A stretch of 64,000 nucleotides of DNA from the NCBI RefSeq assembly GCF_009914755.1, contig NC_060933.1; one strand, 5' to 3'. The notes below the pieces were generated by a model. That model saw nothing but the letters and a program-made list of their open reading frames with translations, had not been told where the DNA came from and ran no database searches. This stretch comes from the human T2T-CHM13v2.0 reference genome, Homo sapiens. The translations under genes and the position numbers were made by a program. Below, one piece after another: positions 22,474 through 26,800 of this stretch; position 1 is the first letter of the stretch; every line of letters begins with the position of its first letter.

Positions 22474-23163
22474 TCAGCCCATTTTCCTTAGCATCCCAAA
22501 ATTCAGCTTGGGCAGAGTCCCATGGAGCTTTCTCTCTTGGTGCTCAAACCACTGTGACAGGCTGGGGTTCTGGGGGTGGATGCAGATGCTGCGTTGAGCC
22601 AGGTGAAGCCTGGGTAGAGAAAGGTCCAAAGCTATGACCATAGCTTGGGGATGAGATTAGGGTCATCCCCAATGACCCTAATTAGGGGTTAGGAGCAAGG
22701 ACCAGATGAAAACCTGAGTTGGCAACAGAATTAGCAGTTAGGGCTGGGGTTGGGATCAGCATTAGGGGTTGGGACTGAGGTCAGAGTCAGGGGTATCAGG
22801 GGTGGGAGCTCACACGAAAGCCTGGAGGTGACAGTCCCCGTCAGCCTCCTGCAGTTCCACCTGGATGACCTTCCTCAGTAGCTTGTCTGAGAGTGGCTTT
22901 CGGTAGAGCTGAGTACAGCAGGCAGTGCTGGGTGGCAGTAGGAATGCTAGGGGCAACAGGGCCATGTGTTCAGAGGGATCCTGACCAAGAACCTCTCTGC
23001 CAGACAGCTGGAGGTTAGGTTGGATTTCCTGGGTCTTTTCAACTTCATCCCATTCACCCAGACCCCCAGCTTTCTATACCCCCAAGTACTCACCTGCTGT
23101 AGGGTCTGGGCTCAGGAGCAATGACAGCAGCAGGAGGCTGCAGAAGGTTGGGGGCCCCTTCAT
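22474..23163 (-). CDS. CCL27: C-C motif chemokine 27 (CTACK/ILC), 112 aa
   Basis: Exons 23163-23094, 22946-22814, 22609-22474 (70+133+136=339 nt). Reads MKGPPTFCSLLLLSLLLSPDPTAAFLLPPSTACC...; GT-AG introns. Confidence 0.98.
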
Positions 23164-24031
23164 GTTGCTCAGCCTAGACTCTTCCTTCTCTCTCTCTCCT
23201 CCTCCCCTACCTTTTATCTGGGTGCCTTTTACCTGGGGCACTAGGTGAGTCAGAGGCAGTTGGAGATGTACTGTGTAACCTGTGACACTCCTGGGCCCTA
23301 ATTCTCGGCCTGTTGCCACAGACTCCTTCCTCATCTAGGATAGCCATTTCCCATGTGCTCCTAAGCTCTGGGCAGTGAAGCTGGGGGAAGGATTAGTGTG
23401 TGATGTAGGGACTGATGGAACAGTGAGTAAGGGCAGTCAAGCATCCACAGCAGCATCTAATGATAGACATTCACACTCAAATACGCATAGCCACACATTC
23501 AAAGTCACTCCTCAATCACTTGGTCAACCTCACAAAGTCATACTCATGATCAGACAACCGTAGACAAAATTATATAGCCCCGGTTATACTCAAAGTCCCT
23601 CTCCCACCCAATTGTGTTTTCACAGTCATCCAATCACAAGCAAATTCACACTAGCACACACAGATTCTGATAGGGGAGTTGTGGGTGGGGTGGGAGCAGA
23701 GGGCAGGCAAGCACCAACTTGCCTTCACCTTCTCCTCCCCACTTCCTGGCTTGGCCTGCCTGTCTTATCAGAAGAAATGGATGGGAATGGGTCCCTAGAG
23801 CAGGCCCTTCTGGCTGAGGAGGTTCTTGGCTGAGGCCAGCCCCATTCAGAGAAGCTGGGGGAAGGCCCTTTATGGTAATATTAAGGGTGTTTTGGAGATG
23901 CTGAGGTGGGGCAGCTTTCCCCAGGATGATGAGACAGGGAGGAAAGGTGGGGTAGATAAGGAGGGAAGATAAAAGCTCTTTGGTGCTAGGTTACTGTTGT
24001 CAAAACAGGTAAAAGGCCCAGTGAATCTTAC

Positions 24032-24131
24032 CTTCCTGTTTTTGTCTAGTCCTGTTCCAGGAATGCCAACCTCTTGCCAGCAGGGGCCTAGGGTCTCCAG
24101 ATCCAGTCCCTGACTTGTTGAAGACATTGGA
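24032..24131 (-). pseudogene. Frameshifted PESKY-type alternative CCL27 exon
   Basis: Reads SPMSSTSQGLDLETLG, then in the shifted frame LLARGWHSWNRTRQKQE, then AAG|gtaaga. Resembles the recalled mouse PESKY N-terminus MSPTSQRLSLEAPSLPLRSWHPWNKTKQKQE. Confidence 0.75.
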
Positions 24132-25429
24132 CTCAAGCACTCAATTACATCTTTGTTTTACTCAAATTCCAGCCTCCTTCCTGGGCCTGGAGGAACATCC
24201 CCTCTCCCTACCCGGGTTCAGTCACACCCTCATGTCCAACTGCTATACCCCCTGCATCCCACCCTCCAGCTATAGCCGCTTCTCTCCTAATCCCATACCC
24301 AGCTGTCACTCCGTTCTTTACCCCCTCCCCGCAATGCAAAGCTCCTATTCATCTTTATCCAGTCCTTTCCAGGAAGCTGGGAGCTGCCTAGGGTGGGGGT
24401 ATGCTGCCAAGTTCAGTGCCCCTGGCTCCTTTAAGAATTTCCCACTCCTGGTCCAGGGATCTCAATCTGCAAGTCCTGCTCTATATTTGAAACATAAACC
24501 AAGTCATAACACAGTAATCCAGCCCTTATCTTGTTGCAGTCGTCTGCTGTAGGGTCAGCCACTCTCTATGGAGTAGGCTTTCTCTTGGGATAGGGCTTAG
24601 GCCTTTCTCTTGTGTCCCAAGGCTTGTTGGGTGTAGCCACTGAGGAAATCCCAAGGAAATCTCCCAGGTTCCTCGGGCTTGTCATAGACCTTCTTCATCA
24701 CTTGGCTGTGCGCTACATACTTTCTGGTCTTCCCTGGGCTTGTCGGTCCAGAAGTCTTCGGAAGGCAGAAAACAAATGCTTTTGGGTGTGCACCCATCTC
24801 TCCCCTTTAAGACCAAGTCTTCTCCCCAGCCACAATCTGCTGTAGCTTTGGCCCCAGCCAGAAACTGGGCCATCTCTTTCTTTAACTTAATCTTGTGGTG
24901 CCCTTTCTGGTGCTGGGTCCAGTCCCTAACTGAAGGCAGGCCCACATAGCAGTCCCTGATTCTCACCACTTGAGGAGTTAGTGGGTCCCAGGCTGATTGG
25001 GTGACAGAAGGGGGCGGCAGAGAGCAGTGGCCCTTGGACTCTCCTAGGGAGGGAGCAAGAACTTCTAGGTAGGCTGATGCCAAGGATCTCTAAACTTGGG
25101 ATCAGACTGGAGGAGCCAAAAGTTGGGGTATGAACTGTAGGAAAGGTCGCCAACCCAAGTCGCTCCTCTGTGGCAGGCAGCTTCTAGGAATCTCCCCCTC
25201 TTATCATTTACAGCCTGCATCCTACACCTCTGCTTAAAATGTTTTAGATATACTCCCAGCAGAGAAGATTCTTCAGACAGCTGGCAAAGTCCTCGCTCCG
25301 AGGAAGGGAGTAACAGGCAGGATTATTTAGTTCTCTTCATATAGGCGACTCACAGTATGGGTTTTTGGGGGTTGGGATTGGGGGAGACAGCCATTGATAG
25401 TAACAGGAGGCCTGACACTGATGAGGGGC

Positions 25430-26800
25430 TTTGACGTGGAAGGGCACCCTTCCAGGGAGGGACGCCCTGTCAGTACGGAACAGAGCCCGTGTGGGGAGGG
25501 GCGCTCGGCTCGAATGGCGACAGCGGCGGCAGAGTCAGGAGGTCAGTACGGTGGGCTTCGGTTTAAATCTTTAATGCACTGGCTGGCTGGGCAGCGGCGG
25601 TGGGGCTGCGGCGGGGGAAGCCACGACCCGAGCGCTGGGGAGTAGGACCCAGGCCGCTGGACAGACAGCTCATCAGGCCTCGCAGAGGCTCCAGCTTCTG
25701 CTCCCCGGGGTGCGCCGAGCTGTGGGGCGACCCGACACTGGCATGAGGCGGGGCGGGAGCTACCGGATTCCCCCCGATGGGTCCTCAGAGACTGAGTCCC
25801 GTCCATGCCCGGGGCGGGTCCGCGGTATCGCAGCCTCCTCACCTCCGCTCCCTCCGCCACATGCGAAGCCAGGGGAAAAAGTAGAAACAGCCCCAGTAGA
25901 TCCTGCAGAGAGAGGGCAGAGCCGGGCGGGGCGGGGCGGGGCGGGGAGGAGCTGACCCTACAGACTCCGCCCCGCGGTGCCTCGCCGTCGAGGAAGGCTC
26001 CGCCCCGCCTCTAAAAGCGGCTCCCTTCGCGCCCACGCCCCTGGGAGGCTCGCCCTGCCCACCCCTCGCCCCCGCAGAACTCCACCCTCCCCCACCCCGG
26101 AGCCGCCTGGTTCCTCCTCCGCAGAACCCGCCTCCACTCACTCCTCCTCCGCCTCCAGCGCCACCTCGTATCTCCTCATTCCCGACATGTCCTGGGCTCC
26201 GAACGTCTCCTGGGGAGCGGCATGATTGAATCAGGGATTCCCTAGCCCCAGGTCCCCTTCTCCGTCATTCTCAGGACGAGGCTGCCCAGTTCTCAGGTAA
26301 TCTGAGGCTGATGCCCCCGAGAAGCCTCAGTTGCCACCACGGGACAGGGTGGGCTTGGAGATTTGGGAGGCACTGGAAGTTAAGGGGTGAGGAGGCCGGT
26401 CATCTCCGGGGCCTGGGGCATTTAGGGGGCCAGGGCGAGAGGTTTGGCGGTCATGGGGCTGGGAGATTTGGGGCCCTGGGTGAGGATTTTCAGGGGCTGG
26501 GGTCACCTGGAGGGGGGGCTGAGAGGGGTCAGCGCAGCCTAAACTCCCGCCCTCCCTGGCTCCACCCCGGAAACGGACCGTTACTATTACGTCACAGGGA
26601 TGCCGTTGCGCACTAGGTTTGCCTGTCCCCCGGAAGGGGTGGGGTGTTCATGTCTCCCAGAGGAGGCGGAGTCGAAACGTCATCTTACGGGGTGAGGCCA
26701 GGGGCGGAGTCGGTTGATTAAGATGCGGGCAAAGGACCCTCTTTTATAGGTGTCAGGTCAGGTTTTGGAGCTACACCTTGGGGGGCCGAGGCTTCCGCAG
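25430..26800. promoter_or_regulatory. CpG island, probable bidirectional promoter
   Basis: Dense CpG, tandem GGGGCG boxes at 25923-25946, CRE-like ACGTCA at ~26589 and ~26678, + strand donor CTCAG|gtaat after 26296. Confidence 0.8.
25563..26188 (-). CDS. Small 3-exon ORF, 87 aa (LOC730098-like uncharacterised protein)
   Basis: Exons 26188-26142, 25902-25843, 25719-25563 (47+60+157=264 nt) with canonical GT-AG sites. MSGMRRYEVALEAEEEIYWGCFYFFPWLRMWRRERSSAHPGEQKLEPLRGLMSCLSSGLGPTPQRSGRGFPRRSPTAAAQPASALKI*. ATTAAA at 25570-25575. Confidence 0.7.

What the first reader, a model, noticed from the sequence alone, without database searches (positions are those of the whole stretch)
22474..26188. 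Broken long non-secreted CCL27 (PESKY-type) isoform: the upstream small ORF and CCL27 look like one ancestral gene
Seen in sequence: exons 26188-26142 and 25902-25843 (107 nt, ending in phase 2, ...WRRER-AG) join exactly to an exon at 24131-24032 (AG|T CCA ATG = S-P-M) that ends in a strong AAG|gtaaga donor. That exon is 100 nt. At 98 nt it would enter CCL27 exon 2 in the required phase 1 and give a 157-aa chemokine without a signal peptide. The frame break sits in the C-run at 24083-24086. Removing 2 nt gives MSSTSQGLDLETLGLLARGWHSWNRTRQKQE|AFLLPP, about 19/31 identical to the mouse PESKY N-terminus as recalled; PESKY is a nuclear, signal-less Ccl27 splice form. I also recall a longer mouse isoform starting MSGLRRYEVALEAEEEIYWGCFYFFPWLRMWRRERSP. 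As written, the splice gives 92 aa ending at TGA in CCL27 exon 2, a possible NMD target. The acceptor (ttgag, no pyrimidine tract) looks decayed. Inference: the intracellular CCL27 isoform was lost in this lineage.
Basis: partly seen in the sequence, partly recalled or inferred. Interest (0 to 1): 0.88.

Follow-up and report, generated by a model that had tools for sequence, protein, structure and literature searches.

The report
Human PESKY exon cannot encode CCL27
Upstream of the human skin chemokine gene CCL27 lies the counterpart of the rodent exon that makes a non-secreted, nuclear form of the chemokine (PESKY), but in humans and a monkey its start codon is out of step with the chemokine, so mouse PESKY results should not be assumed to hold in people.

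Summary
In detail: every coordinate, splice signal, phase and the 92-aa product were reproduced.

- **Homology:** 24131-24032 is homologous to the rodent Ccl27 alternative 5' exon. LOC730098 coding exons 1-2 form the N-terminus of long Ccl27 isoforms in muroid rodents. The inferred rodent exon is 98 nt; the human one is 100 nt.

1. **Break position:** it fits best at 24103-24084, upstream of the proposed C-run.
2. **Age:** a green-monkey model is 27 of 27 identical to the human chemokine-compatible frame, so the break is not human-specific.
3. **Third acceptor:** rodents use three acceptors. The human equivalent of the third (24087) is still in frame and gives a 143-aa ORF, though the site is weak.
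4. **LOC730098:** it is a conserved 87-aa gene with its own third exon, not a remnant.

Loss in primates versus gain in mouse-like rodents is unresolved, because no DNA from other mammals could be fetched. I lean towards gain. Human expression was not testable. This is a modest but useful caution for the chemokine literature.

The parts
26142..26188 (-). LOC730098 coding exon 1 (ATG 26188-26186, 47 nt). It is also the first coding exon of the muroid long Ccl27 isoforms.
   Evidence: tblastn of P0051 residues 1-16 gives 26188-26141, 87.5% identity, E 0.001.
25843..25902 (-). LOC730098 coding exon 2 (60 nt, ends in phase 2). It encodes the near-invariant aromatic core that begins IYWGCFYFFPW.
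   Evidence: tblastn of P0051, E 2e-11. The core is also present in turtle and emu proteins. The donor scores above 24 of 30 annotated donors.
25563..25719 (-). LOC730098 coding part of exon 3, ending ...ALKI then stop. This is the part that makes LOC730098 a separate gene product.
   Evidence: 21 of the 36 proteins fetched end in ALKI. All 12 placental orthologues compared do, with 67-84 of 87 residues identical for 11 and 63 of 71 aligned for Echinops.
24032..24131 (-). Exon X: the human counterpart of the rodent Ccl27 alternative 5' exon (PESKY exon). It is 100 nt. The ATG at 24127-24125 is in frame 1; the CCL27-compatible frame 0 has no ATG.
   Evidence: tblastn of P0051 gives 24133-24095 in frame -1 (77%) and 24095-24033 in frame -3 (52%), E 1.6e-4. 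P0069 gives 24151-24095 and 24074-24033, E 3.9e-5.
24084..24103 (-). Interval in which the human reading switches frame relative to mouse-like rodents (net +2 nt).
   Evidence: Frameshift-aware protein-to-DNA alignment. Against four muroid peptides the break falls at 24094-24093, plus one extra codon at 24089-24084. Against Jaculus it falls at 24103-24102, plus one extra codon at 24071-24069.
24032..24113 (-). X from the second acceptor (caacaag|TCAGGG, 82 nt). It corresponds to the rodent RERS|Q... forms and to the green-monkey model. After LOC730098 exon 2 it is out of frame (86 aa).
   Evidence: The acceptor scores below all 30 annotated acceptors, 69th percentile of AGs.
24032..24087 (-). 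X from the third acceptor (ccctag|GCC, 56 nt). It corresponds to the rodent RER|R... forms P0061, P0063 and P0067. In human it is in frame and gives a 143-aa signal-less ORF.
   Evidence: translation open to the CCL27 stop. The acceptor scores above 4 of 30 annotated acceptors, 90th percentile of AGs.
24026..24031 (-). Donor gtaaga after X.
   Evidence: 8 of 9 consensus positions. Scores above 21 of 30 annotated donors, 98.5th percentile of GTs.
23207..23380 (-). 5' extension of CCL27 exon 1, entered through a good acceptor at 23380. X's ATG frame runs on here for an 89-aa ORF that stops at 23209-23207, 44 nt before the CCL27 ATG at 23163.
   Evidence: Unnamed protein P0112 maps to 24127-24032 and 23380-23210. 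The human translation is 82 of 89 identical. The acceptor scores above 13 of 30 annotated acceptors, 97.8th percentile.
22814..22946 (-). CCL27 exon 2 (enters in phase 1). It holds the premature TGA at 22877-22875 of the frame-shifted readings.
22474..22609 (-). CCL27 exon 3 coding part.

Best explanation
The segment 24131-24032 is the human orthologue of the rodent Ccl27 alternative 5' exon (exon 1a, the PESKY exon).

**In mouse-like rodents** this exon works in two ways.
- As a first exon, its ATG opens a signal-less chemokine (PESKY).
- As an internal exon, it is entered from the first two coding exons of the upstream small-protein gene (the LOC730098 orthologue) through any of three acceptors. 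This gives chimeric long isoforms.

**In human, and in at least one Old World monkey,** the ATG frame and the chemokine frame of this exon are out of register, with a net 2 nt more than the 98 nt inferred for rodents. PESKY proper would give 55 aa. The two longer chimeric forms would give 92 and 86 aa. All three end at a premature TGA in exon 2, 61 nt before the last junction, and would be expected to be decay targets.

What remains in human is an exon with a strong donor, poor acceptors and no usable chemokine ORF from its own ATG. It is most likely a non-coding 5' leader or vestigial exon.

LOC730098 is a separate, deeply conserved 87-aa gene that lends its 5' exons to Ccl27 in rodents.

**Shown:** homology, frames, splice-site scores, sharing with green monkey, and conservation of LOC730098.

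**Inferred:** the rodent exon length (from protein models), the decay of the frame-shifted transcripts, and the direction of change. I lean towards a gain of the in-frame ORF in mouse-like rodents rather than a primate loss.
For: - **Frames and product lengths:**
- **Homology:** tblastn of rodent isoforms hits X in two different frames, with E 1.6e-4 (P0051) and 3.9e-5 (P0069). P0069 homology continues upstream of the acceptor to 24151, as expected for a first exon.
- **Distribution, exon 2 search:** all 74 proteins found with CCL27 exon 2 were read. Of these, 19 carry an X-derived peptide before exon 2. Eleven are named for muroid genera, three are unnamed rodent-like records, and one each is named for Jaculus, Marmota, Chinchilla, Lynx and Chlorocebus.
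- **Distribution, long isoforms:** the forms with the LOC730098 exon 1-2 peptide plus X occur in 8 clusters. Seven are named for muroids and one is unnamed.
- **Sharing with green monkey:** P0003 is 27 of 27 identical to human frame 0 over 24113-24033. That span covers the break interval.
- **Splice sites:** strong donor, weak acceptors.
- **LOC730098:** 21 of 36 fetched relatives end in ALKI. All 12 placental orthologues compared do (67-84 of 87 identical for 11; Echinops 63 of 71 aligned). The core motif is present in marsupials, turtles and emu.
- **Lean towards rodent gain:** the Chinchilla model is colinear with the human ATG frame across the break interval, and no non-myomorph protein starts at the X ATG and continues into the chemokine.
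Against: - No DNA of any other mammal could be fetched. The 98-nt rodent exon, the position of the break and the direction of change all rest on predicted proteins (Gnomon, Ensembl, unnamed assemblies), and such models exist only where a frame is open.
- The ATG and 9 of the next 11 residues (10 of the 13 aligned) match rodents in human frame 1, and the donor is strong.
- The Chinchilla argument rests on 13 residues. tblastn gave no alignment for that part at E < 0.5.
- The third acceptor leaves a 143-aa in-frame chimera possible in human, so "cannot encode" applies to PESKY proper and to two of the three long forms, not to every route.
- No expression data of any kind were available.
Confidence: 0.8

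Rival explanations
1. LOC730098 and CCL27 were one ancestral gene encoding a long intracellular chemokine. A 2-nt insertion in the C-run 24086-24083 broke it in the human lineage, and the acceptor then decayed.
For: - The net excess of 2 nt is real.
- The ATG and flanking codons are conserved in frame 1: 10 of 13 residues against Mastomys.
- The donor is strong and the first acceptor is weak.
- NCBI files the LOC730098 orthologue under the Ccl27 gene in rat (P0078 is named C-C motif chemokine 27 isoform X5).
- Gnomon fuses the two genes in 3 of 5 marsupial clusters.
Against: - The break is shared with green monkey, so it is not specific to the human lineage.
- The C-run placement scores 88, against 97-99 for a break at 24094-24093.
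- LOC730098 keeps its own exon 3 and ALKI end in all 12 placentals compared.
- The marsupial fusions join after exon 3 and keep the chemokine's signal peptide internally. That is a different architecture.
- No intact form was found outside mouse-like rodents.
Confidence: 0.25
2. Humans still make a signal-less CCL27 by other routes.
- LOC730098 exons 1-2 joined to X at acceptor 24087 (143 aa).
- An exon at 25220-25155 joined to X at 24113 (138 aa, as in the green-monkey model).
- An ATG in intron 1 at 22965 that runs straight into exon 2 (95 aa, as in the chimpanzee and bonobo model).
For: - All three ORFs are open in the window.
- The 95-aa ORF is letter for letter P0001, which a source names for Pan troglodytes and Pan paniscus.
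- P0003 is an NCBI model for Chlorocebus.
- Acceptor 24087 is the best of the three X acceptors.
Against: - The hub's RefSeq table lists one CCL27 transcript and no X exon.
- The 25155 donor scores below all 30 annotated donors.
- Acceptor 24087 scores above only 4 of 30 annotated acceptors.
- A search with the P0003 N-terminus found only P0003 itself, 1 of 2 candidates.
- A search that would have found a human-type chimera in the 81-261 aa range returned none.
Confidence: 0.12
3. Chance. The exon-like segment and its resemblance to PESKY are coincidental.
For: The acceptor at 24131 is no better than a median AG.
Against: - There are significant two-frame tblastn hits for several independent species: P0051, P0069, P0034 (E 0.003), P0029 (E 0.002) and P0003 (E 1.8e-15).
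- The donor is at the 98.5th percentile.
- An unnamed spliced protein uses exactly this ATG and donor.
Confidence: 0.01

Closest known systems
Mouse PESKY, the signal-less nuclear isoform of Ccl27/ESkine (Baird et al. 1999, recalled and cited by reviews seen; the primary paper is not held)
   Same: The human exon is homologous and lies in the same place, upstream of the signal-peptide exon. It keeps the ATG and a strong donor. 19 of 31 residues match if the two human frames are joined.
   Different: In human the ATG frame does not continue into the chemokine. The ORF ends after 55 aa. No human transcript or protein was seen.
Muroid long Ccl27 isoforms (NCBI models such as Mastomys X1, Grammomys X2, Cricetulus X2, Rattus CRA_f, Phodopus X2, Microtus X2)
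   Same: The first two exons are the same (33 of 35 residues). The same internal exon has three acceptors whose positions can all be found in human.
   Different: Two of the three human forms are frame-shifted, the human acceptors are weak, and RefSeq annotates no such human transcript.
LOC730098 small-protein family (uncharacterized; orthologues named 'uncharacterized protein LOC...' in many mammals)
   Same: Human LOC730098 is a typical member: 87 aa, invariant aromatic core, ALKI end.
   Different: In human it is annotated as a gene apart from CCL27. In rat NCBI lists the orthologue as a Ccl27 isoform (P0078).
Conjoined or read-through transcription of neighbouring same-strand genes (general knowledge)
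   Same: The upstream gene's 5' exons are spliced to the downstream gene's exons. This recurs in rodents, and in another form in marsupial models.
   Different: In rodents a dedicated intervening exon (X) sets the frame. In human that exon breaks it.

Membership tests
PESKY-type Ccl27 isoform | Alternative 5' exon upstream of the signal-peptide exon, homologous to rodent exon 1a | tested here: met
   tblastn hits of P0051, P0069, P0034, P0029 and P0003 on 24151-24033.
PESKY-type Ccl27 isoform | Donor able to splice the exon to exon 2 | tested here: met
   AAG|gtaaga matches 8 of 9 consensus positions and scores above 21 of 30 annotated donors. This tests sequence only; usage was not tested.
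PESKY-type Ccl27 isoform | ATG of that exon in frame with exons 2-3, giving a whole chemokine domain without a signal peptide | tested here: not met
   The ATG at 24127 opens a 55-aa ORF that ends at TGA 22877-22875. Frame 0 has no ATG.
PESKY-type Ccl27 isoform | Expression (brain, testis, eye) and nuclear localisation | not testable with these tools
   No expression data are available here. The properties are quoted from reviews.
Muroid long Ccl27 isoform (LOC730098 exons 1-2 + X + exons 2-3) | N-terminal 35 residues from the upstream gene's exons 1-2 | tested here: met
   33 of 35 residues identical between human and Acomys. tblastn.
Muroid long Ccl27 isoform (LOC730098 exons 1-2 + X + exons 2-3) | Open frame through X into exon 2 | tested here: inconclusive
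   Acceptor 24131 gives 92 aa then a stop. Acceptor 24113 gives 86 aa then a stop. Acceptor 24087 gives an open 143-aa ORF.
Muroid long Ccl27 isoform (LOC730098 exons 1-2 + X + exons 2-3) | Competent acceptor on X | tested here: inconclusive
   The three acceptors score above 0, 0 and 4 of 30 annotated acceptors. The rodent sites could not be scored because no rodent DNA was available.
LOC730098 small-protein family | Aromatic core in exon 2, own third coding exon, C-terminal ALKI | tested here: met
   The human translation ends ALKI. All 12 placental orthologues compared do so too, with 67-84 of 87 identical for 11 and 63 of 71 aligned for Echinops.
CC chemokine (Pfam PF00048, IL8) | Chemokine domain present in the product | tested here: not met
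   The rodent and monkey long forms match PF00048 (P0051 E 1.6e-8, P0043 E 7.4e-8, P0003 E 8.4e-6). The human 92-aa reading leaves the chemokine frame and stops after 23 out-of-frame codons.
Nonsense-mediated decay substrate (50-55-nt rule, general knowledge) | Stop codon more than about 50-55 nt upstream of the last exon junction | tested here: met
   The distance is 61 nt. Actual decay is not testable here.

The most novel reading that the evidence does not exclude
Signal-less, intracellular CCL27 may be a recurrent feature that different mammal lineages reach by different 5' exons.

Catarrhine primates, human included, would have replaced the rodent PESKY start with their own routes:
- a chimera of the conserved 35-residue LOC730098 N-terminus with CCL27 through acceptor 24087;
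- a start in intron 1.

On this reading the deeply conserved LOC730098 N-terminal module acts as a targeting domain that is appended to the chemokine in rodents, in marsupial models and possibly in humans.
Probability: 0.1. Interest if true: 0.65.

Novelty: new member of a known kind. Interest (0 to 1): 0.4.

Why it matters
PESKY is listed as a synonym or product of CCL27 in human-oriented reviews. It is also used in hypotheses about the human brain, cancer and wound healing. If the human locus cannot encode it, intracellular CCL27 functions shown in mouse cannot be carried over to people through this isoform. Nuclear CCL27 in human cells would then have to come from uptake of the secreted protein or from other, untested transcripts.

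The locus is also a clear case of a conserved small-protein gene (LOC730098) that shares its 5' exons with a neighbouring chemokine gene in some lineages only.

Tried and rejected
- **Primary papers:** Baird 1999 and Gunsolly 2010 are not held. Whether they already say that humans lack PESKY could not be checked.
- **Literature search:** the search for PESKY plus CCL27 found 15 papers and listed 14. I read the PESKY passages of 13 and did not open PMC3527566. None says the human frame is broken. One calls PESKY a mouse isoform.
- **LOC730098 in print:** 4 papers, seen as a listing only.
- **Pfam:** no family was found for the LOC730098 N-terminus (P0043 and P0051 at E <= 1).
- **ESM Atlas:** no usable hit for P0076.
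- **Green-monkey N-terminus:** the search returned only P0003 itself.
- **Representative search with X frame 1**: 7 hits. I fetched 3. P0112 is relevant. P0111 and P0113 are unrelated repeat proteins. P0114-P0117 were not fetched.
- **Chinchilla N-terminus:** tblastn gave no alignment on X at E < 0.5.
- **Chance resemblance:** rejected.
rejected as the best fit, but not excluded.

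
Full report
**Observation**

On the minus strand, LOC730098 coding exons 1 (26188-26142, 47 nt) and 2 (25902-25843, 60 nt) end in phase 2. The segment 24131-24032 (called X here) is exactly 100 nt. 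It is preceded by gtgcttgag and followed by AAG|gtaaga.

- CCL27 exon 2 (22946-22814) must be entered in phase 1. Exon 1 + exon 2 + X leaves phase 0, and the reading ends after 92 aa at TGA 22877-22875. That stop is 61 nt before the exon 2/3 junction.
- X frame 1 holds the ATG (24127-24125).
- X frame 0 is the frame that runs open through the whole chemokine. It has no ATG and is closed by a TGA just upstream.
- Splice sites were scored with a weight matrix built from the 30 annotated donors and 30 annotated acceptors of this window. The X donor scores above 21 of 30 annotated donors (98.5th percentile of all GT between 22000 and 27000). The acceptor at 24131 scores below all 30 annotated acceptors (52nd percentile of all AG).

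**Homology**

A search with CCL27 exon 2 for longer proteins gave 74 hits. I read all of them.

- Nineteen carry an X-derived peptide directly before exon 2. Eleven are named for muroid genera (Peromyscus, Grammomys, Mastomys, Cricetulus twice, Rattus, Phodopus, Arvicola, Microtus twice, Myodes). Three are unnamed. One each is named for Jaculus, Marmota, Chinchilla, Lynx and Chlorocebus.
- Eight clusters (seven muroid, one unnamed) begin with the LOC730098 exon 1-2 peptide and continue through X into the chemokine. One example is the 164-aa Mastomys isoform X1.
- Between ...RER and the first alanine of exon 2 these forms have 33 residues. That implies a 98-nt exon if the phases are as in human.
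- tblastn of that protein against the whole window gave six alignments with E <= 0.001, all on the expected exons. X was hit in two frames: 24133-24095 (frame -1, 77%) and 24095-24033 (frame -3, 52%), E 1.6e-4.
- P0069 is an unnamed record. Its 96-residue chemokine part equals the protein NCBI names Mus musculus isoform 2 precursor. It carries a PESKY-type N-terminus of 31 residues. P0069's homology continues upstream to 24151, as expected for a first exon.

**Where the break is**

I aligned rodent peptides to the human exon with a frameshift-aware alignment.

- The four muroid peptides place a 1-nt deficit at 24094-24093, plus one extra codon at 24089-24084.
- Two of three penalty settings gave that result. 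The third gave a single 2-nt excess at 24094-24093.
- Jaculus places the shift at 24103-24102, plus an extra codon at 24071-24069, in three of three settings.

Proteins alone cannot fix the exact base. The interval 24103-24084 is the safe statement.

**Three acceptors**

Rodent models enter X at three places: RER|S-PMS..., RERS|Q... and RER|R-LPL.... The human equivalents are 24131, 24113 and 24087.

- After LOC730098 exon 2, acceptors 24131 and 24113 give 92 and 86 aa and then a stop.
- Acceptor 24087 (56 nt) is in frame and gives an open 143-aa signal-less chimera.
- This fits a break that lies upstream of 24087.
- Acceptor 24087 is the best of the three. Even so, it scores above only 4 of 30 annotated acceptors.

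**Age and direction**

- The NCBI model Chlorocebus sabaeus isoform X1 (P0003) reads X from 24113 in frame 0. It is 27 of 27 identical to human over 24113-24033, which spans the break interval. The out-of-register state therefore predates the split of humans and Old World monkeys.
- No protein outside mouse-like rodents starts at the X ATG and continues into the chemokine.
- The Chinchilla model follows the human ATG frame across the break interval and shifts elsewhere. It is only 13 residues, and tblastn found nothing there at E < 0.5.
- Jaculus and murids themselves read the middle of the exon differently.
- On the other side, the ATG, the residues after it and the donor are well kept in human.

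I therefore treat loss against gain as open and lean towards a gain of the in-frame ORF in mouse-like rodents. No DNA of other mammals could be fetched with these tools.

**LOC730098**

A search with the N-terminus of the rat long form gave 47 hits.

- Of the 36 newly fetched sequences, 21 end in ALKI like the human protein.
- All 12 placental orthologues compared do so. Eleven have 67-84 of 87 residues identical to human, and Echinops has 63 of 71 aligned. They cover rodents, primates, a rhinoceros, a goat, a mole, a bear, an aardvark, a tenrec, an armadillo and an anteater.
- Marsupials, two turtles and an emu keep the aromatic core.
- Pfam has no family for it, and the Atlas gave nothing.
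- In 3 of 5 marsupial clusters Gnomon fuses the whole small protein to the whole chemokine, signal peptide included. This is a different join from the rodent one.
- NCBI names the rat orthologue a Ccl27 isoform (P0078).

The two genes therefore form an old, same-strand pair with recurrent joint transcripts. LOC730098 is nonetheless a gene in its own right.

**Other uses of the exon and other signal-less ORFs**

- A search of 1.84 billion representatives with X frame 1 found P0112 (89 aa, unnamed). It maps to 24127-24032 and then to 23380-23210. That is X's ATG and donor joined to a good acceptor that extends CCL27 exon 1 upstream (above 13 of 30 annotated acceptors, 97.8th percentile). The same 89-aa ORF is open in human (82 of 89 identical) and stops 44 nt before the CCL27 ATG. 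This suggests that in a close relative X serves as a 5' leader of a transcript that still encodes secreted CCL27. The origin of the record is unknown.
- The human equivalent of the green-monkey form (25220-25155 + 24113-24032 + exons 2-3) is an open 138-aa ORF. Its donor scores below all 30 annotated donors, and the form is a singleton in the database.
- An ATG at 22965 in intron 1 runs straight into exon 2. Its 95-aa ORF is letter for letter P0001, which a source names for chimpanzee and bonobo.
- Exon 2 of LOC730098 joined directly to CCL27 exon 3 is also in frame (80 aa), as in a Cervus model (P0075).

**Literature**

The search for PESKY plus CCL27 found 15 papers and listed 14. I read the PESKY passages of 13.

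- Several speak of PESKY as a product of the CCL27 gene in a human context or list it as a synonym of human CCL27.
- One calls it a mouse isoform.
- None mentions the human frame.
- The primary papers are not held, and supplements were not consulted.
- A mouse study calls the signal-peptide exon "exon 1b", which fits an upstream exon 1a.

**Verdict**

The feature is real and the homology claim is right. "Broken" holds for PESKY proper and for two of the three long forms. The break is old and shared with a monkey. Its placement in the C-run and the "one ancestral gene, lost in this lineage" reading are not supported as stated. The finding is a useful, moderate correction to how PESKY is cited for humans, not a new kind of system.

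Noticed in passing
window 26188-25563 (-): LOC730098 is a deeply conserved 87-aa protein with an invariant aromatic core and an ALKI end. It is present across placentals, and the core is kept in marsupials, turtles and emu. It has no Pfam family and only list mentions in 4 papers.
   Followed up: partly
P0093, P0097, P0102 (marsupial models): Gnomon fuses the whole LOC730098 orthologue to the whole CCL27 orthologue with the signal peptide internal, in 3 of 5 marsupial clusters. These are read-through transcripts or merged models.
   Followed up: no
window 24127-24032 joined to 23380-23207 (-): An 89-aa ORF runs from X's ATG through a good acceptor into a 5' extension of CCL27 exon 1. It matches unnamed protein P0112 (82 of 89) and would act as an upstream ORF of a secreted-CCL27 transcript.
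   Followed up: partly
window 22965-22963 (-), intron 1 of CCL27: This ATG is contiguous and in frame with exon 2. Its 95-aa signal-less ORF is identical to P0001, which a source names for Pan troglodytes and Pan paniscus.
   Followed up: partly
window 25220-25155 (-), inside the LOC730098 3' UTR exon: This is the human counterpart of the first coding exon of the green-monkey CCL27 isoform X1 model. The ORF is open (138 aa), but the donor is poor and the model is a database singleton.
   Followed up: partly
window 24508-24455 (-): This segment is homologous to the alternative first coding exon of a ground-squirrel CCL27 model (P0008; 72% over 18 residues, E 2e-4). Human has no ATG in that frame within 24560-24430.
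   Followed up: partly
window 26225-26142 and 25902-25843 (-), second reading frame: Vole, hamster and unnamed models (P0041, P0053, P0066 tested; P0065, P0068 and rabbit P0011 by eye) read LOC730098 exons 1-2 in another frame, from an upstream start, into Ccl27. The same overlapping frame aligns in human.
   Followed up: no
window about 23320-23164 (-): P0002 (164 aa, 23 member sequences, unnamed source) is spliced human-identical CCL27 with an ORF reaching about 150 nt upstream of the annotated start of exon 1. This implies transcripts with a longer exon 1.
   Followed up: no
window 25843 joined to 22609 (-): LOC730098 exon 2 and CCL27 exon 2 both end in phase 2. A direct join to CCL27 exon 3 is therefore in frame (80 aa), as in a Cervus model (P0075).
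   Followed up: no
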